DNA of 30,947 nt from a virus (lineage: Duplodnaviria > Heunggongvirae > Uroviricota > Caudoviricetes), in the IMG/VR virus record IMGVR_UViG_2534682078_000030; one strand, 5' to 3'. The position numbers and the translations under genes are program-made. Under the pieces are notes generated by a model. The model had not been told where the DNA came from. It did no database searches and saw nothing but the letters and a program-made list of their open reading frames with translations. Numbering within the stretch: the stretch's first letter is position 1; each line of letters opens with the position of its first letter. This document shows positions 23 to 5,545 of this stretch, one piece after another.

Positions 23-1000
23 TGAACCGCCCCGGGTTTCCTGGAGAGTGTTTTATCTGTGAACTCAGGCTGCCAGATCATCGTTTCCGATGGAAGCATA
101 ATAAGCTTTTTCTGCTTCTGCCGGAGGAGTATGGCCCAGCCTTCCCAGCAATCGTCGATTGTTATACCAGTCCACCCACGTTAGTGTGGCCAGTTCCACT
201 TCTGCACGGTTTTTCCAGCTCTTACGGTGTATTACCTCCGCTTTGTAAAGACCATTGATGCTCTCAGCCATCGCGTTGTCATACGAGTCGCCTGTACTCC
301 CTGTTGATGCCAGTAATCCGGCTTCTTTTAGTCGCTCCGTATAGGCCAGTGACACATACTGAGAGCCTTTATCGCTGTGATGGATGGTGCCAGACGGACG
401 ACGGGCCCACAACGCCTGCTCCAGCGCATCCAGCACGAATGTCGTTTCCATAGACGATGAGACCCGCCACCCCACGATGTATCCGGCAAACACATCAATG
501 ATAAACGCCACATAGACGAAGCCCTGCCATGTGCTGACGTAAGTAAAATCAGCCACCCACAGCTGGTCAGGTCGTTCTGCCACGAACTGACGGTTTACGC
601 GGTCGCCTGCGGCAACGGCTTTCCGGCTGATGGTCGTACGGACCTTTTTACCCCGGAGAACACCGGCAAGTCCCATAACCGCCATGTTACTGCGGCGCAG
701 TTCACGATTTTCACGTTCCAGCTCTTTCAGACGCTGACGTTCAGCGCTGGTGAGCCCACCATCACCGCCCCCGGTATCCCGCTCATGCTGGCGAACCCAG
801 ACACGCAGAGTCTCCGGCGTACAGCCAATCTTTGGGGCAATGGAACAAATTGCCGCCCACTGTGAGTCATATTCATCCTGACTTTCCAGAACCATACGAA
901 TCGCCCGCTGACGGACTTCGGGGGAAAAACGAGTATTTTTAGTCATCCTGTTTACCTCTTTCTCAGGGAGTTTAGTCTCCAGGATTTCCGGGGCGGTTCA
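23..1000 (-). mobile_element. IS3-family insertion sequence (IS629/IS1203-like), copy A, 978 bp, internally deleted
   Basis: Termini match copy B: TGAACCGCCCCGGGTTTCC from 23 (right end, reverse orientation) and GGATTTCCGGGGCGGTTCA ending at 1000 (left end). It is 332 bp shorter than the 1310-bp copy B; the junction at 685/686 joins orfA codons ...RRSN to orfB codons MAVMG. Flanking triplets TGT (20-22) and TTC (1001-1003) are not a direct repeat. Confidence 0.85.
65..946 (-). CDS. IS3-family transposase, in-frame OrfA-OrfB fusion created by the internal deletion (293 aa)
   Basis: First 86 aa are identical to OrfA of copy B ([19 protein letters not shown]...RELRRSN) and the remaining 207 aa are identical to the C-terminal part of OrfB of copy B ([14 protein letters not shown]...NDDLAA). 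The programmed-frameshift window and OrfB N-terminus are missing. Confidence 0.8.
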
Positions 1001-2412
1001 TTCAGGAGGACCGCCACGAGCTGGGCGATGACATAACTCCGCGTTTTAAGGCGGAGTATGTCGACGGCTCAAAAGGCACACCAACCAGCTACATCGCCAC
1101 CTACATCGGAAAGAACCTGGACAGCCGCGCCGTGGATGGCATCGACCCGAAAACGGGCAAGCCACGCGTTGACCACGAAACCGGAAAATCAATGGCCGAG
1201 AGCGTGGAGCGCGCCATCGGCTGGGCGCGCCTTCACCGGGTCCGTCAGTTCCAGTTCTTTGGCATCCCCTCCCGTCAGGTGTGGCGTGAACTGCGCCGCC
1301 TTGCCAGCCAGATGGCACGCAATCCGGAAGGCCCGCAACGGCTGAAAGATGATGCAATGGATGCGGTACTCGCTGCCGCCGATGCCGGGTGTTTTGCCAC
1401 CTACATTGAAAAACAGGGCGGCGTACTTGTTCCACGCAAAGACTACCTGATTCGCACCGCCTACGACCTCGCAGATGAGCTGAATGATTACGGCGAACAG
1501 AGCGTACAGATTTACGGGATCTGGTCACCACTCATCGGGGAATCCTCCCGTGTGTGCACGCATCCGGATAACTGGAAACTGGTAAGACGTAAACCGGAAA
1601 CGGAAGACAGCGCCCGCGAAAATGGTTTTGACCTTCAGGGCGGCCCTGCCGCCCCTTGGACTCGTGGCAATAACTGTCCCCGTGTACAGGAAACGGACAA
1701 CAACGGGGCAGAACAGCCGGAAGAACGGCCAGCACCGTGGCCGCAGCTCCCTGACGGCGTTGAAGTGAACGAATGGATGCGCTCACTGAAACGGCACGAA
1801 CGCCGGGCGCTGATGCGTTCGCTTCGTGACAAACAGGCAAAAAACAGCAGTGATGAAATGCAGAGCTGGACACAGAGCCGCAAACAGCAGCGGCCTTTGC
1901 CTGATAACCACGAATTACTCGCTAAAGAATGGCGGGAGTCTGCCGAATCTCTCGGCCTGCATATCGGTGAACAGCAGATGCAGCACCTGCTACGGGGCGG
2001 CAGCCTGTACGTTGACGGCAGCATCATTGCACCGCAGGGATATGAAATTGTACGCAAACCGGATACCCGCCCGGACAGCCGAATCACGCAGCTCTGGCAG
2101 CACCTGAGCCGTAATCACGGCGTAAGCAGCACGGAGATCCGCCATAACCCGGTCGCCAGCTATCTGGCACAGCTGGGGGCATCAGACCCCGAAGCCGCCG
2201 CACGCCTGGCATCCGCACTTCAGCAGGATCAGAACACCATGAAAACACCCGTTACCGTGCTTTCTGACATGCTGCGCGCCATCCGCGACGCAGAGCACGC
2301 ACAGAGAATCAGTGAAACCACTGAACGCGCCAGCCGCAAAGCAGACCTGCTGCAGGGTGGCCTGACCAGTGGAAACAAAAACAGACAGAAACGGGACTCA
2401 CGAATCCCGTAA
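1001..2412 (+). pseudogene. A: Replication initiator gpA-like (rolling-circle Rep with paired catalytic tyrosines), 5'-truncated by IS copy A
   Basis: Open frame starts at the IS boundary with no start codon (QEDRHELGDD...). It contains the Y-x3-Y motif SYIATYIGKN typical of the P2 A / phiX174 A nickase family and sits upstream of the Q-P / O-N-M-L head cluster as in P2-like phages. About 470 codons remain. Confidence 0.7.
2391..2410. repeat. 20-bp palindrome ACGGGACTCACGAATCCCGT, copy 1 of 2, overlapping the gene A stop
   Basis: Inverted arms ACGGGAYT / AATCCCGT read directly in the sequence; repeated 73 bp downstream. Confidence 0.6.
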
Positions 2413-2463
2413 ATGAGCAAAAAACGCGCAGCGATATATGAAGCGCGCACAAAACAGGCAAAA

Positions 2464-2483
2464 ACGGGATTTCAGAATCCCGT
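2464..2483. repeat. 20-bp palindrome ACGGGATTTCAGAATCCCGT, copy 2 of 2, about 35 bp upstream of parM
   Basis: Perfect 8-bp arms with a 4-bp spacer; both copies are followed by TAAA. Position is consistent with an operator or centromere-like site for the parM operon. Confidence 0.6.
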
Positions 2484-2517
2484 AAACGATTAATTAATCA
2501 ACATAAGGAAAAGCGAC

Positions 2518-3477
2518 ATGAAAATTTGTATCGACGACGGCTCCACCAACATCAAGCTGGCATGGACTGAGAACGGCGAACGCCGCAACGCCATCAGCCC
2601 GAACAGCTTCAAGTCGGAATGGTCTGCGCCGTTCGGTGGCACGCAGCCCGCGAACTACATGCTTGATGGCGTGCGCTATGGTTTTGATCCGGTCAGCGAT
2701 CGCTTTGTCCAGACGACCGACACGCAATACCAATACAGTGATGTGAATGTCATTGCCATTCATCACGCGCTGGTCAAATCAGGCATCACGCCACAGGAGG
2801 TGGATGTGGTTGTCACCCTGCCACTGAGCGAGTATTTCGACACAAACGCACAGCCGGACATAGCCAACATCAACCGCAAAAAAGCGAACGTTATGCGCCC
2901 GGTGGAGTACCAGAACGGCGAAGCATTCACTATCCGTAACGTGCGGGTTATGCCTGAATCCATTCCGGCTGGCTTTAAGGCACTGGCTGACATGAGTCCG
3001 TTTGAATCCCTGCTGATTGTGGATTTGGGCGGAACCACGCTGGATGTGGCAAAGGTTCAGGGGCAGCTGGCAGGTATCAGCCAGGTGTTTTGCGATCCAC
3101 ACGTAGGCGTTTCCCTGATGGCTGATGCCGTGCTGTCGGTGATGGCCACTAACGGTATGCGTACCAGTCACCACATCGCCAATACCATTATTGAGCACCG
3201 TCACGATGAAGCCTGGCTGCGCCAGCACATTCACAATGACGCGCATTACAACAGCCTGATGGCGGTTATTCGTGAAAAGGAGGAGACACTGAAACAACGA
3301 GTGATCCGCGCGCTGGCGGGTTTTTCCGGTTACGGGCGGGTGATGGTTGTCGGTGGAGGGGCGGAGATTGTGGCACCCGCTATCCGCGAAGCCTGCGGAG
3401 TTAATGCGACTTTCATCACGGACGGGGTGCCACATTTTGCTCTGGTTAATGGGCTGTACGCAATGAACAAGGAGTAA
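2518..3477 (+). CDS. parM: ParM/StbA-like actin-type plasmid segregation ATPase
   Basis: 319 aa; N-terminus ICIDDGSTNIKLAW...ISPNSFKSEW, then YSDVNVIAIHHAL, VMPESIPAG, LIVDLGGTTLD and VVGGGAEI align closely with my recollection of plasmid R1 ParM. SD AAGGAAAA precedes the ATG at 2518. Confidence 0.85.
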   Translation: MKICIDDGSTNIKLAWTENGERRNAISPNSFKSEWSAPFGGTQPANYMLDGVRYGFDPVSDRFVQTTDTQYQYSDVNVIAIHHALVKSGITPQEVDVVVTLPLSEYFDTNAQPDIANINRKKANVMRPVEYQNGEAFTIRNVRVMPESIPAGFKALADMSPFESLLIVDLGGTTLDVAKVQGQLAGISQVFCDPHVGVSLMADAVLSVMATNGMRTSHHIANTIIEHRHDEAWLRQHIHNDAHYNSLMAVIREKEETLKQRVIRALAGFSGYGRVMVVGGGAEIVAPAIREACGVNATFITDGVPHFALVNGLYAMNKE

Positions 3478-3481
3478 ACCA

Positions 3482-3793
3482 ATGACGACACCAACCAGAA
3501 GAATAAGTTTCTATCTGAAGCCAGCTGCCGTCAAGAACGAAGGAGAAGCATGCGCCTGGCTGGACAGCCTTACACCAGAAGCCCGCAAAAGCGGCCAACG
3601 CGTGGCTTTTCTGGCCGGGCTGGCACTTCTGAAGACGAATCCGGCAGAGGCTTACCGACTGGCCGCATGGGCTGATGATGAGATGTTACCTGTGACACAA
3701 ATCAGCTCAAAAAAGTTTGAAGCACAGTCTGCACCAGTGGCTAAGATAACCAGCCAGATGGCTGGGAATATCCGGGCGTTATTTCCTGAGTAA
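3482..3793 (+). CDS. parR: ParR/StbB-like centromere-binding adaptor
   Basis: 103 aa immediately after parM; RRISFYLKP...LDSLTPEARKSGQRVAFLAGLAL resembles the R1 ParR N-terminal ribbon-helix-helix region (RRTIAFKLNP...LDSIPQGERSRLNRAALTAGLAL). Confidence 0.7.
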   Translation: MTTPTRRISFYLKPAAVKNEGEACAWLDSLTPEARKSGQRVAFLAGLALLKTNPAEAYRLAAWADDEMLPVTQISSKKFEAQSAPVAKITSQMAGNIRALFPE

Positions 3794-3921
3794 AAGCATC
3801 TGCGCGAAAAATGCTCACATTTATAGAAACAGTATCATTCCATTTGGCGCACTTACTTCAATAATCGATCTGTTAAACAAATAGATTGTCTATTATCTAT
3901 CGATTAAAACGATCAATTATC

Positions 3922-3949
3922 TTGACAGTAATGTGCCTTTTTGTAAGAT
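3922..3949 (+). promoter_or_regulatory. Candidate sigma70 promoter TTGACA-16-TAAGAT
   Basis: Perfect -35 hexamer at 3922-3927, 16-bp spacer, -10 TAAGAT at 3944-3949, inside an AT-rich region with nested inverted repeats (TAATCGAT...ATCGATTA at 3861-3906). Sequence-only prediction. Confidence 0.4.
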
Positions 3950-4000
3950 CGTTCGCATTGTGAGCGACAAGATAATTGCGCGGCATTGTCCATGCAAAAC

Positions 4001-4026
4001 GCCCCAATAGCAGCAACTATTGGGGC
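4001..4026 (+). other. Stem-loop GCCCCAATAG-cagcaa-CTATTGGGGC (10-bp perfect stem, no U tract)
   Basis: Perfect inverted repeat read in the sequence, downstream of the candidate promoter. Confidence 0.4.
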
Positions 4027-4055
4027 GTAGAACTCGGTCGGACTCACTTAACCTG

Positions 4056-4140
4056 ATATGCGTGCCTTCCGAAGTAAATCAAAATGTGCGTCGTATATTT
4101 TATTGCTTACACGCACCTCTGTAAAGGCACGCATATTTTT
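4056..4140 (+). other. Long hairpin ATATGCGTGCCTT ... AAGGCACGCATAT with inner GTGCGT/ACGCAC stem, followed by TTTT; terminator/attenuator or structured RNA
   Basis: 13-bp arms at 4056-4068 and 4124-4136 enclose about 55 nt containing a second inverted repeat; the T run at 4137-4140 is directly before the SD and GTG start of the next ORF. Confidence 0.4.
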
Positions 4141-4157
4141 CCTATGAGGTAAATAAA

Positions 4158-4427
4158 GTGCGGGCTAAAACAGGTATTTGCAAGAACCCTCATCGTTATA
4201 ACCCAACATTTCTGTCTCTCCCTGAATATCAAGGACAAGAAGGTCGGCACAAATGCGCTGCCTGTGCTTTTGAGCTAGGCATAAAAGATGCGCTTGAAGG
4301 ACGCGCTATGGCTCAGAATGATTTAGTTTTAGCTAACATTCCGTTTAGCCAGGCTGGAACTGTAAGGCACAGAGATGCTTATGAAGCATATGTTCGTGGT
4401 TGGCGATTAATACACAGCAACAATTGA
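4158..4427 (+). CDS. Hypothetical 89-aa protein (GTG start), Cys-containing (HKCAACAFELG)
   Basis: ORF with SD GAGG 8 nt upstream of GTG and a strong intrinsic terminator directly downstream. I do not recognise a family. Confidence 0.5.
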   Translation: MRAKTGICKNPHRYNPTFLSLPEYQGQEGRHKCAACAFELGIKDALEGRAMAQNDLVLANIPFSQAGTVRHRDAYEAYVRGWRLIHSNN

Positions 4428-4435
4428 TATTTTTG

Positions 4436-4460
4436 AAGCGCCGATAAGGCGCTTTTTTTT
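4436..4460 (+). terminator. Rho-independent terminator AAGCGCC-gataa-GGCGCTT followed by T8
   Basis: GC-rich 7-bp stem and a run of 8 T, 9 bp after the stop codon at 4425-4427. Confidence 0.75.
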
Positions 4461-4989
4461 GTTTGCACGATAGTGCACAAGTTTGCACAATTTTTTTGAA
4501 CGACTTTTTGTACTTCCGGCCCGCGTGGCGGCTGGATCCGTCAAGGATCCGTACGTGCACAAAAAACGCGTTTTTTCTACGCGCAGGTGACGGGGGAACA
4601 GCCCGCGTTTCAGGGGGGTAAACAGCATTCCCTGAACGATGTCGCAGAGACACAACAGAATGGCCATATTTCTCACGCTGAGCATGAAAAAGGCGTGAGG
4701 GCTTTTGATTTGATGGGGTGAAAGGTAAGGCCGTCAAAATCGCACTGAGGCAGCGAGAACATACAGTCAACGCGGTGGGATTGCGTAAGAGTCTGACCGT
4801 CGATGGTGGCGATAAACTGGAAGGCGTCGTGAAATTATCTGATTGATACAGGAGCTGGAGAGCCGGGGCATAAATTTTTTATGCCCCGGCGAAGCAGCAG
4901 ACAAGCGAAGCGCGTCAGTGATGCGGCACCTTGCCGACCACACTTCATAAGTGCAAAATACGAGCAAAGAAATCAATGGAGGCTGTTTT

Positions 4990-5514
4990 ATGGTCATTAA
5001 TTACAAGCAGTTACGAGAAAAACGAGAGCAGGTAAAGGAAAGTTTTCGCCGCAATGAAGATCTGACCCCGCTTGTACACCTTGCTCAGGGAATTGTAGAT
5101 GCTTATGAAATCTCTCTGGAGCTGCCATCACAGACATGGACTGATAGCGACGGTAATCGCCAGCATTACGTTTCATGCGGACTGGAAACAACTGAAGGGT
5201 TTCGCAGAATGCCTTTATCTCAGATTCCTGCCTCTACCCCCAAAGCAAGGGGCGGCAATGATGAGCGAAAACTGATTTTCAGCATTGAGACAGTGGTTGA
5301 CGACACACCTGGCGAAGTCGCCTTCGTGCATACTCCTCTTTCGATCGCAATGTATAACGATGAAATACAGGTTCGCGTTAATAATAATATCGTGCCACTT
5401 AAAGAAGGTAATTCACCCTACACCACCGTTTGTGAAGCCATTCAATATTACGTTCTCTCTGAAATTGATAATCTCAAGCCTGACGGCACCCAGAAAATGG
5501 TTCAACTCTGGTAA
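4990..5514 (+). CDS. Hypothetical protein, about 174 aa, unknown function
   Basis: ATG at 4990 with GGAGG 7 nt upstream (the tracked ORF opens at 4951, but the start at 4990 has the SD). Terminated by a hairpin plus T run. No recognisable motif. Confidence 0.5.
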   Translation: MVINYKQLREKREQVKESFRRNEDLTPLVHLAQGIVDAYEISLELPSQTWTDSDGNRQHYVSCGLETTEGFRRMPLSQIPASTPKARGGNDERKLIFSIETVVDDTPGEVAFVHTPLSIAMYNDEIQVRVNNNIVPLKEGNSPYTTVCEAIQYYVLSEIDNLKPDGTQKMVQLW

Positions 5515-5519
5515 AAAGG

Positions 5520-5545
5520 ACAGCCCCATCACGGGGCTGTTTTTT
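5520..5545. terminator. Bidirectional intrinsic terminator ACAGCCCC-atcac-GGGGCTGT flanked by A5 and T6
   Basis: 8-bp GC-rich stem with a U tract on either strand; lies between the convergent 174-aa ORF and Q. The Q stop codon (5529-5531) is in the loop. Confidence 0.7.

What the first reader, a model, noticed from the sequence alone, without database searches (positions are those of the whole stretch)
2391..2483. Two copies of a 20-bp palindrome bracketing the A-parM junction
ACGGGACTCACGAATCCCGT (2391-2410, overlapping the last codons of A) and ACGGGATTTCAGAATCCCGT (2464-2483) have 8-bp inverted arms and are spaced 73 bp (about seven helical turns) apart; each is followed by TAAA. Between them is a GCGC-rich quasi-palindrome around TATATG. 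This is the layout expected of a paired operator for a dimeric regulator, or an unconventional centromere for the adjacent ParR. R1 parC uses direct 11-bp iterons instead, so this is not a textbook parC.
Basis: seen in the sequence. Interest (0 to 1): 0.45.

Follow-up and report, generated by a model that had tools for sequence, protein, structure and literature searches.

The report
Probable ParR-binding centromere of a prophage
Two copies of a 20-bp palindrome just upstream of an actin-like DNA-segregation operon (parM-parR), in a P2-like prophage found in about a quarter of complete E. coli genomes, are conserved and travel with that operon, so they are most likely its undescribed, unusually compact centromere/operator; no binding has been shown.

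Summary
The palindromes lie at 2391-2410 and 2464-2483, 73 bp apart. They are the cores of a longer 39-nt direct repeat (2378-2416 / 2451-2489, 82% identical). The motif occurs nowhere else in the window or in a complete related phage genome.

The window is a defective P88-like (Xuanwuvirus, P2-like) prophage. parM is a clear R1-ParM homologue, and the next gene belongs to the R1 ParR/StbB family.

One correction: in intact relatives gene A reads through palindrome 1 and stops at 2439-2441. Here a 1-bp deletion makes A stop right after the palindrome.

Three lines of comparative evidence favour a cis-element of the parMR module:
- The repeats are more conserved than synonymous sites.
- The 72-74 bp spacing holds even in a Plesiomonas phage with 63%-identical ParM.
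- The shared CGGGA box stays next to parM when other genes separate it from A, and is absent from P2-like phages that lack parMR.

Best reading (about 0.55): a compact, dyad-type parC bound by ParR. Rivals are minus-strand intrinsic terminators, a plus-strand RNA hairpin, and an operator without centromere function. ParR binding, the promoter and stabilisation are all untested. I rate it a new variant of a known kind, of moderate interest.

The parts
2378..2416 (.). Repeat copy 1 (39 nt): A-rich left flank, palindrome 1 and TAAATGA
   Evidence: Direct repeat family D1, 82% identical to copy 2, spacing 73. It is 79% identical to the Hafnia-type relative, against 65% at 4-fold sites of parM. Homology with L099 begins at 2377, the start of this copy.
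2391..2410 (.). Palindrome 1, ACGGGACTCACGAATCCCGT (7 of 8 arm pairs here; perfect in the commonest variant among relatives)
   Evidence: In intact relatives it lies inside the gene A reading frame.
2417..2450 (.). GC-rich spacer between the repeats; in intact relatives it holds the last codons and the stop of A (2439-2441)
   Evidence: Least conserved segment: mean diversity 0.099, and about 50% identity to the Hafnia type. Its length is nevertheless kept, with spacing 73 in 67 of 69 unique sequences.
2451..2489 (.). Repeat copy 2 (39 nt): A-rich left flank, palindrome 2 and TAAACGA
   Evidence: It is 87% identical to the Hafnia type (binomial P = 0.0018 against 65% neutral). Its left 22 nt, AAAACAGGCAAAAACGGGATTT, are 22/22 identical (P = 8e-5). 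The same CAGGCAAAAACGGGA occurs upstream of parM in a Serratia prophage with 58%-identical ParM.
2464..2483 (.). Palindrome 2, ACGGGATTTCAGAATCCCGT (perfect 8-bp arms, 4-nt centre), 34 nt before the parM ATG
   Evidence: It also scores as a terminator-like hairpin with a T5 tail on the minus strand.
2490..2517 (+). Conserved leader TTAATTAATCAACATAAGGAAAAGCGAC containing the parM ribosome-binding site
   Evidence: Low diversity of 0.032. The motif ATTAATCAA..TAAGGA recurs in Plesiomonas and Hafnia relatives.
2518..3477 (+). parM, actin-like segregation ATPase
   Evidence: Pfam StbA_N 3.5e-82 and ParM_N 2.5e-67. R1 ParM structure 1mwk 3.5e-92. PHROG 691 'partition protein'.
3482..3793 (+). parR-like adaptor, the presumed DNA-binding protein for the repeats
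   Evidence: PF10784 Plasmid_stab_B 9.8e-24; an R1-type ParR hits the same family at 5e-30. It is 34% identical to R1-type ParR over residues 6-61. Residues R6-P14 (RRISFYLKP) are invariant in 15 homologues.
1132..2412 (+). 3' remnant of replication gene A (P2 gpA family): cut by an IS at about 1000 and frameshifted at 2377-2381

Best explanation
The two 39-nt repeats, each built around a 20-bp palindrome with core CGGGAT..ATCCCG, are the cis-acting site of the prophage's type II partition module. They would be the equivalent of parC, bound by the ribbon-helix-helix adaptor ParR encoded just after parM.

Inferred mechanism: ParR dimers bind the four inverted CGGGAT boxes, two per palindrome and about 12 bp apart. 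The two palindromes lie 73 bp (about seven helical turns) apart and so present the bound ParR on one face of the DNA. The resulting ParR-DNA complex would capture the growing ends of ParM filaments through the conserved ParR C-terminus (NIRALFPE), and so move or position circular phage DNA. The same complex may also control parMR expression.

Shown here: the repeats, their uniqueness, their conservation and spacing, their linkage to parMR, and the family membership of ParM and ParR.

Inferred only: ParR binding, stoichiometry, filament capture, and any regulatory effect.
For: 1. Position. The site lies immediately upstream of parM, where parC lies in type II systems (review PMC5016525). ParM and ParR are true family members.

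2. Uniqueness. There are two copies and no others, in the window and in a complete phage genome.

3. Selection. Against a Hafnia-type relative with 35% divergence at 4-fold sites of parM, the repeats are 83% identical overall (65/78, P = 3e-4). The spacer between them is about 50% identical. Within 54 unique sequences, the centres of the palindromes and the spacer are more diverse than the arms and left flanks.

4. Architecture kept at greater distance. A Plesiomonas P2-like prophage (ParM 63%) has two copies of GCGGGACAAC..CCCG, 72 bp apart, the first overlapping the end of A. Spacing is 73 bp in 67 of 69 unique P88-type sequences.

5. The box follows parM, not A. In Enterobacter-type prophages a methylase and a further ORF separate A from parM, and inverted AAAACGGGAAC arms still lie directly upstream of parM. 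In L099 the 3' part of A is replaced and homology resumes exactly at the start of repeat 1. P2-like phages without parMR (186, a Klebsiella Dagavirus) have no such palindrome after A.

6. The presumed DNA-reading strand of ParR (RRISFYLKP) is invariant wherever the core boxes are kept, although the rest of ParR falls to 54% identity.

7. Precedent. [quoted passage not shown]
Against: - No binding data exist, and the tools cannot model protein-DNA recognition.
- The layout is far from the 10 direct iterons of R1. A weight matrix built from R1 iterons picks A-rich flanks here, not the palindrome arms.
- Four boxes seem too few for the roughly 12-dimer ParR ring described for plasmids.
- No sigma-70 promoter was found, so autoregulation has no identified target. 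The scan also misses the R1 promoter, so this is uninformative.
- On the minus strand both palindromes look like hairpin plus T-run terminators, and the conserved A-run next to CGGGA is exactly that T-run.
- One E. coli element keeps parMR without either palindrome.
- The ParR model was of low confidence (pLDDT 56), so the ribbon-helix-helix fold is not confirmed here.
- A-tract phasing at 10.5 bp is only marginal when tested at the tract level.
Confidence: 0.55

Rival explanations
1. Tandem intrinsic (Rho-independent) terminators for leftward (minus-strand) transcription. They would stop antisense transcripts coming from the variable cargo or late region before these enter replication gene A.
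For: - The scan calls both palindromes terminator-like on the minus strand: ACGGGATTCTGAAATCCCGT+TTTTTGCC and ACGGGATTCGTGAGTCCCGT+TTCTGTCTGT.
- The conserved A-run 5' of CGGGA on the plus strand is the T-run of such a terminator.
- In Serratia-type relatives, hairpins followed by T-runs on the minus strand also lie upstream of parM.
- Palindrome 1 stays fully paired as minus-strand RNA in 51 of 54 unique sequences.
Against: - No minus-strand gene or promoter lies between the palindromes and about 3900. parM and parR are on the plus strand, so a terminator here would act only after 1.3 kb of antisense transcription.
- Palindrome 2, the better terminator, is not fully paired as minus RNA in 26 of 54 unique sequences. 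Thirteen of these carry the C2481T change, which gives an internal A.C mismatch.
- The Plesiomonas and second Hafnia types keep the CGGG..CCCG dyad but have no T-run on either strand.
- A terminator needs neither two copies with identical arm sequence nor a fixed 72-74 bp spacing.
Confidence: 0.12
2. ParR (or another repressor) binds the palindromes purely as an operator that sets parMR expression, with no centromere function. The parMR genes would then serve a role other than moving this DNA.
For: - The sequence evidence is the same as for the best explanation: a dyad site directly upstream of the operon, as is typical of repressor operators.
- R1 ParR is itself an autorepressor.
- Four boxes are enough for an operator but few for a segrosome.
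Against: - No promoter could be located in 2413-2517, though the test is uninformative.
- Palindrome 1 lies inside the upstream coding sequence, 127 nt from the parM start, which is odd for a simple operator.
- The ParR C-terminal tip, which in R1 contacts ParM, is invariant or nearly so, and ParM is under strong conservation. This argues for a working filament-adaptor pair, which needs a DNA cargo site.
Confidence: 0.1
3. A plus-strand RNA element in the early A-parM-parR transcript. The hairpins would act as processing or stability signals, or would tune translation of parM relative to A.
For: - Both palindromes fold as hairpins. The 161-nt plus-strand RNA folds better than all 200 shuffles (z = -4.1).
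- Palindrome 2 stays fully paired, counting G.U, as plus RNA in 47 of 54 unique sequences.
- No separate promoter for parM was found.
Against: - The z-score follows trivially from a repeated palindrome, and the minus strand scores the same.
- There are no compensatory double changes in 54 unique sequences. The one-sided changes are two or three inherited polymorphisms with no consistent strand bias by event.
- Palindrome 1 is not fully paired as plus RNA in 25 of 54.
- In Plesiomonas the stem shrinks to 3-4 pairs with a 10-nt loop while the DNA boxes and the spacing persist.
- No Rfam family matches.
Confidence: 0.08
4. Binding sites for some other protein (the A replication protein, a phage regulator, or a host factor), or a functionless relic of a local duplication of the 3' end of A.
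For: - Palindrome 1 lies inside A in intact phages.
- The two repeats, read in the same frame, give similar peptides (KQTETGLTNPVNE / KQAKTGFQNPVND), as a duplication would.
Against: - The replication origin of phage 186 maps by homology to about window 1627, 750 bp upstream.
- The box follows parM when A is separated from it, and is absent from P2-like phages without parMR.
- Conservation above the synonymous rate argues against a neutral relic.
- The peptide similarity follows from 82% DNA identity: the 7 DNA differences give 5 amino-acid changes, so the second copy shows no sign of coding constraint (inference from the sequences).
- The dyad does not fit the P2 late-activator site TGT-N12-ACA (stated from my own knowledge, checked against the sequence).
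Confidence: 0.08

Closest known systems
parC of plasmid R1 (ParMRC, type II partition)
   Same: Both lie directly upstream of parM-parR. The proteins are homologous (ParM E = 3.5e-92 to 1mwk; ParR in the same Pfam family). The site is split into two blocks around a central stretch. It is A-rich with a C/G triplet core: R1 AAACCC, here AATCCC.
   Different: R1 has ten 11-bp direct iterons over about 150 bp, with the promoter in the middle. This locus has two 39-nt units over 112 bp, each containing an inverted pair of boxes, and half of the site lies inside the upstream coding sequence. No promoter was identified. The R1 iteron matrix does not pick the palindrome arms.
srpC of SXT/R391 integrative conjugative elements (SrpMRC)
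   Same: It is a type II-like partition module on an element that is normally integrated. Its centromere is made of four short repeats in direct and inverted orientation, and fragments carrying pairs of them are bound by the adaptor. The module stabilises a test plasmid (PMC4489591).
   Different: The paper states that SrpR has no recognisable similarity to ParR proteins. The repeats are 13 bp long, within a 251-bp region. The host element is conjugative, not a phage.
AlpAC/alpS of Corynebacterium prophage CGP3
   Same: It is a prophage-encoded actin-like protein with a DNA-binding adaptor that recognises sites near its own operon, and it is needed for efficient phage DNA replication or transport (abstracts of PMC4446434 and PMC5539076). 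This gives a precedent for why an integrating phage would carry such a system.
   Different: The proteins belong to different families, and the host and phage type differ. I did not compare the site sequences.
Operators of ribbon-helix-helix proteins with inverted or mixed subsites (Arc, omega, ParG/parH)
   Same: [quoted passage not shown]
   Different: Those proteins belong to other families. Here the fold of ParR is inferred from family membership only.
Bidirectional or leftward intrinsic terminators
   Same: An A-run, a GC-based hairpin and, on the other strand, a T-run.
   Different: Two copies share an identical arm sequence at fixed spacing. No leftward transcription unit ends here. The hairpin is not maintained in a large fraction of relatives.

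Membership tests
Type II (ParMRC) partition locus, R1 family | Actin-like ATPase ParM | tested here: met
   Pfam StbA_N 3.5e-82 and ParM_N 2.5e-67. phmmer to R1 ParM structures gives 3.5e-92. It is 46-52% identical to plasmid ParMs.
Type II (ParMRC) partition locus, R1 family | Small adaptor ParR encoded directly downstream of parM, in the R1 ParR/StbB family | tested here: met
   PF10784 at 9.8e-24, with an R1-type ParR hitting the same family at 5e-30. BLASTP gives 34% identity over 56 residues, E = 2e-8. The gene starts 4 nt after the parM stop.
Type II (ParMRC) partition locus, R1 family | ParR N-terminal ribbon-helix-helix fold, dimeric | tested here: inconclusive
   The AlphaFold2 monomer model has mean pLDDT 56. 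Helices at 20-29 and 32-52 fit helix 1 and helix 2, but the N-terminal strand is not modelled. There is no sequence-level PDB hit.
Type II (ParMRC) partition locus, R1 family | Repeated cis-site (parC) in a single locus directly upstream of the operon | tested here: met
   Two 39-nt repeats lie at 2378-2489 and end 28 nt before the parM ATG. They are unique in the phage genome.
Type II (ParMRC) partition locus, R1 family | parC made of an array of tandem direct iterons (R1: 10 x 11 bp; pSK41: 4 x 20 bp) | tested here: not met
   There are only two repeat units, each a dyad. The R1-iteron matrix does not match the arms. Plasmid relatives L005-L009 do show iteron arrays.
Type II (ParMRC) partition locus, R1 family | Operon promoter within or next to parC, repressed by ParR | tested here: inconclusive
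   No sigma-70 consensus was found in 2200-3900 on the plus strand. The same scan fails on the R1-type parC region.
Type II (ParMRC) partition locus, R1 family | ParR binds parC specifically; the cassette stabilises a replicon in cis | not testable with these tools
   This needs EMSA or footprinting and plasmid-loss assays.
Intrinsic transcription terminator | GC-rich hairpin immediately followed by a U-run on the transcribed strand | tested here: met
   Both palindromes meet this on the minus strand only. On the plus strand the tails are TAAATG and TAAACG.
Intrinsic transcription terminator | Lies at the end of a transcription unit on that strand, with the hairpin maintained in relatives | tested here: not met
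   No minus-strand ORF or promoter-like site lies between 2484 and about 3900. Palindrome 2 is not fully paired as minus RNA in 26 of 54 unique sequences. The Plesiomonas type has no T-run.
P2-type replication origin (nick site of the A protein) | Located within gene A at the position homologous to the P2/186 ori | tested here: not met
   The annotated ori of phage 186 maps by protein alignment to about window 1627. The palindromes are 750 bp downstream, and their central bases vary.
Known structured RNA families (Rfam 15) | Match to a covariance model | tested here: not met
   There are no hits at 2000-3900 at E <= 1.
Known anti-phage defence systems (the locus sits in the variable A-to-portal region) | Match of ParM, ParR or neighbours to PADLOC models | tested here: not met
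   There are no PADLOC hits for four proteins.

The most novel reading that the evidence does not exclude
P2-like temperate phages carry a minimal, dyad-type centromere: four inverted CGGGAT boxes in two palindromes seven helical turns apart, partly embedded in the coding sequence of the replication gene. Through it an R1-type ParM/ParR pair would actively move or position circular phage DNA during infection or after induction. This would mean a functional type II segrosome can be built from far fewer, differently oriented sites than the 10-12 direct iterons thought necessary. It would also mean that about a quarter of complete E. coli genomes carry a phage-borne DNA-segregation machine of unknown role.
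Probability: 0.3. Interest if true: 0.65.

Novelty: new variant of a known kind. Interest (0 to 1): 0.45.

Why it matters
Type II partition is a textbook model built on R1, pB171 and pSK41, whose centromeres are arrays of direct repeats that wrap a ring of about 12 ParR dimers. A working site made of two palindromes would show how small and how differently arranged such a centromere can be, and it would give a defined 112-bp fragment to test.

It also raises an open biological question: why does an integrating, rolling-circle-replicating P2-like phage keep a highly conserved plasmid-segregation motor? This junction is present in 1304 of 5426 complete E. coli genomes. Precedents from an integrative conjugative element and from a Corynebacterium prophage suggest a role for the excised or replicating circular form.

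If the palindromes turn out to be terminators, the finding is ordinary.

Tried and rejected
- Replication-origin reading: rejected. The 186/P2 ori maps about 750 bp upstream by homology.
- R1-iteron similarity of the palindrome arms: a weight matrix from the ten iterons of an R1-type plasmid ranks A-rich flanks (2373, 2377, 2419) highly but not the arms, so no claim is made.
- Helical phasing of A-tracts: overlapping AAA triplets gave a strong 10.5-bp signal (0 of 2000 shuffles). At the level of eight separate tracts the signal is marginal: Rayleigh P about 0.02 at 10.5 bp, and 18% of random placements reach it when periods are scanned. I treat it as suggestive only.
- Promoter search: nothing in the junction, but the scan also misses the R1 promoter, so the result is uninformative. 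Reading the minus strand of 2440-2740 by eye gave no convincing antisense promoter.
- RNA covariation: there are no double compensatory changes, and the strand bias of one-sided changes rests on two or three inherited polymorphisms.
- ParR structure: the model was of low confidence and was not used for a fold search.
- Searches for closer plasmid relatives of ParR by tblastn found only prophage-type copies.
- The genome-contig scan returned only near-identical loci.
- Literature searches found no description of this phage's parMR or its site.
- Defence-system reading of the locus: no PADLOC hits.
- A 26-codon ORF (2413-2493) that starts right after the window's A stop is a by-product of the repeat and shows no sign of coding constraint.
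Full report
**What is in the sequence.** They are 73 bp apart. Each is followed by TAAA, and a GC-rich stretch lies between them. The repeat finder shows that the repeated unit is longer than the palindrome. It is a 39-nt direct repeat, 2378-2416 / 2451-2489, 82% identical. The unit consists of an A-rich left flank (AAAACAGRCARAAA), the palindrome, and TAAAYGA. Copy 2 has perfect 8-bp arms around a 4-nt centre. Copy 1 has one mismatch in this window. The degenerate motif occurs nowhere else in the 30.9-kb window, with 0.00 expected by shuffling. In a complete 34.5-kb relative the palindrome is also confined to these two places.

**Context.** The window is a prophage of the P88 type (Xuanwuvirus, Peduoviridae, P2-like). 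Fourteen phage records match 1900-3900 at 94.7-96.9% identity. The junction itself is found in 1304 of 5426 complete E. coli genomes, almost always on the chromosome. The genes run as follows:
- replication endonuclease A;
- parM (2518-3477);
- a parR-like gene (3482-3793);
- variable cargo;
- portal and terminase, on the other strand.

ParM is an unambiguous R1-type ParM: Pfam StbA_N 3.5e-82, R1 ParM structure 1mwk 3.5e-92, and 46-52% identity to plasmid ParMs. The small protein belongs to PF10784 (9.8e-24), the family that also holds an R1-type ParR (5e-30). It is 34% identical to that ParR over its N-terminal 56 residues. No PADLOC defence model matches these proteins.

**A correction to the gene A overlap.** This prophage is defective. 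Gene A is cut by an IS3-family element near position 1000. The A-run at 2377-2381 has five A, where 58 of the 61 relatives in the alignment have six. In phage P88 itself, A reads through palindrome 1 (...KKQTETGLTNPANEQKTRSDI*) and stops at the TGA equivalent to 2439-2441. So in intact phages palindrome 1 lies inside the coding sequence and only palindrome 2 is intergenic. In a Hafnia-type relative A ends inside palindrome 1, in yet another frame arrangement. The element is therefore kept whatever the reading frame over it, which points to a function at the DNA or RNA level.

**Conservation.**
- Among 54 unique P88-type junction sequences, the palindrome centres (mean diversity 0.09 and 0.27) and the spacer (0.10) vary more than the arms (0.05-0.07) and the A-rich left flanks (0.02-0.03).
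- A Hafnia-type relative differs at 35% of the 4-fold sites of parM. Against it, repeat 1 is 79% identical, repeat 2 is 87% identical, and the spacer about 50%. The two repeats together give 65 of 78 matches (P = 3e-4 against 65% neutral identity). The left 22 nt of repeat 2 are unchanged (P = 8e-5).
- The spacing is 73 bp in 67 of 69 unique sequences, and 72 or 74 in the other two.

**Linkage to parMR rather than to A.**
- In locus L099 the 3' part of A is replaced by unrelated sequence and an extra ORF. Homology with the window resumes at 2377, one base before repeat 1.
- More distant P2-like prophages also carry parM-parR after A. The Plesiomonas one (ParM 63% identical) has two copies of GCGGGACAACAAAAACCCG, 72 bp apart, the first overlapping the end of A. 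That is the same layout with a changed inner sequence.
- Serratia- and Enterobacter-type prophages (54-58%) have CAAAAACGGGAAC at the outer end of 20-24-nt inverted arms around a GC-rich centre, again directly upstream of parM. In the Enterobacter type this holds even though a methylase gene and another ORF separate parM from A.
- P2-like phages without parMR (186, a Klebsiella Dagavirus) have LexA-type and other repeats after A, but no such dyad.
- The replication origin annotated in 186 maps by protein homology to about window 1627, 750 bp upstream, so an origin function is unlikely.

**ParR.** Across 15 homologues that fall to 54% identity, residues R6-P14 (RRISFYLKP) are invariant. By analogy with ParR structures this is the DNA-reading beta-strand. 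N96, I97, F101 and P102 of the C-terminal tip NIRALFPE are also invariant, while residues of about 64-95 are hypervariable. ParM stays above 93%. All these loci keep both palindromes. This is consistent with ParR reading the boxes, but it does not discriminate between models. An AlphaFold2 monomer model was of low confidence (pLDDT 56), so the ribbon-helix-helix fold rests on family membership only.

**Comparison with known centromeres.** A review of segrosomes describes type II parC as tandem repeats in one locus upstream of the operon. They are either continuous (pSK41) or split in two with the promoter in the middle (R1). One ParR dimer binds per iteron, and about 12 dimers make one turn (PMC5016525). 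The plasmid and phage-plasmid relatives I fetched do show such arrays: R1-type AAACAAAACCC repeats, TTTTTCT-type repeats, and TCTCA repeats in phage D6.

The prophage site shares three features with these: its position, the split into two blocks, and an A-rich core with a C-triplet (AATCCC against R1's AAACCC). It differs in three ways: it has only two units, it uses inverted pairs, and it lies partly inside a gene. A weight matrix built from R1 iterons does not pick the arms, so I do not claim iteron homology.

A closer formal precedent is srpC of SXT/R391 elements. [quoted passage not shown] That cassette stabilises a test plasmid (PMC4489591). A prophage-encoded actin-like system with a DNA-binding adaptor is also known from Corynebacterium phage CGP3. 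I found no paper describing the parMR of P88-type phages or its site.

**Most likely mechanism.** I think the two repeats are the ParR-binding site of this module. Two ParR dimers would bind each palindrome, on boxes about 12 bp apart. The two palindromes lie seven helical turns apart, on the same face of the helix. The complex would present the conserved ParR C-termini to ParM filament ends. It may also regulate the operon. The steps shown here are the anatomy, the conservation, the linkage to parMR and the protein families. Binding, stoichiometry and filament capture are inferred.

**Rivals.** The strongest rival is a pair of minus-strand intrinsic terminators. Both palindromes score as such, and the conserved A-run next to CGGGA is the matching T-run. 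Hairpin plus T-run structures also lie upstream of parM in Serratia-type relatives. Four points count against this reading:
- No leftward gene or promoter-like site lies within 1.4 kb to the right.
- Palindrome 2 is not fully paired as minus-strand RNA in 26 of 54 unique sequences.
- The Plesiomonas and second Hafnia types have the dyad without a T-run.
- A terminator explains neither the identical arm sequences nor the fixed spacing.

A plus-strand RNA hairpin role is weakened by the absence of compensatory changes and by the near loss of the stem in Plesiomonas. The folding z-scores of about -4 on both strands follow simply from a repeated palindrome. No Rfam family matches. An operator-only role cannot be separated from the centromere role by sequence alone. 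The promoter scan is negative, but it also misses the known R1 promoter. One E. coli element keeps parMR without either palindrome and without A. It may simply be a decayed remnant.

**Verdict.** The element is best filed as a new variant of a known kind: a dyad-type, two-block parC candidate of a phage-borne R1-family ParMR module. Confidence is about 0.55 and interest is moderate. It becomes more interesting if binding and segregation are demonstrated, because the site is so small and the prophage so common.

Noticed in passing
window 65-1010 and 2377-2381: The prophage is defective. An IS3-family element (transposase ORF 65-946, minus strand) truncates replication gene A near 1000. A 1-bp deletion in an A-run then shifts the frame of the last codons of A (5 A here, 6 A in 58 of the 61 relatives in the alignment).
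   Followed up: yes
window 3482-3793 (ParR), residues about 64-95: ParR is mosaic. The N-terminal 63 residues and the last 8 (NIRALFPE) are conserved, but the segment between them is hypervariable (overall identity falls to 54%). The adjacent ParM stays above 93% identical. This suggests recombination or diversifying selection on the linker.
   Followed up: partly
L111 (NZ_CP148288.1, 1-34461): A complete P88-like phage genome, with integrase, is deposited as a circular 34,461-bp 'plasmid' in a complete E. coli assembly. Among complete E. coli genomes, 1441 junction copies are chromosomal and 2 are on plasmids.
   Followed up: partly
L102 2990-3040 (E. coli EC7518): A small integrase-bearing element keeps parM-parR but lacks gene A and both palindromes. 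The junction with a DUF4761 gene falls at the equivalent of window 2482, right at the end of palindrome 2.
   Followed up: partly
L099 1992-2453 and the breakpoint equivalent to window 2377: In one E. coli relative the 3' part of A is replaced by unrelated sequence with a separate 153-codon ORF. Homology to the window resumes exactly at the start of repeat copy 1. Both this breakpoint and the one in EC7518 coincide with repeat edges.
   Followed up: partly
window 3999-4028 (minus) and 4097-4125 (minus): Downstream of parR there are weak Rfam hits to plasmid antisense RNAs (ctRNA_pGA1 and sar, E about 0.2, well below the gathering score) and a 10-of-12 promoter-like site on the same strand. This may be a small leftward transcription unit.
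   Followed up: no
L106 3380-3480, L107, L113, L114 (upstream of parM): Serratia- and Enterobacter-type P2-like prophages have a different upstream layout: 20-24-nt inverted arms (AAAACGGGAACGATATAGAAAAAT / ATTTTTCTGTTTCGTTCCC) around a GC-rich hairpin, followed by a GCCGTTTAAACGGC palindrome.
   Followed up: partly
window 3800-5528 and the same interval in L090-L107: The interval between parR and the portal gene carries different cargo in different relatives: a zf-ClpX-like gene, Ead/Ea22, HicAB, a KAP NTPase, Rrf2, HTH with a PIN domain, and ogr/delta. It behaves as a variable hotspot. The two window ORFs there (4158-4427, 4951-5514) match only PHROGs of unknown function.
   Followed up: partly
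window 2413-2493: A 26-codon ORF (MSKKRAAIYEARTKQAKTGFQNPVND) starts immediately after the window's A stop codon and ends in repeat copy 2. Its C-terminus mimics the A C-terminus of intact phages only because of the DNA repeat. Nothing suggests it is a gene.
   Followed up: yes
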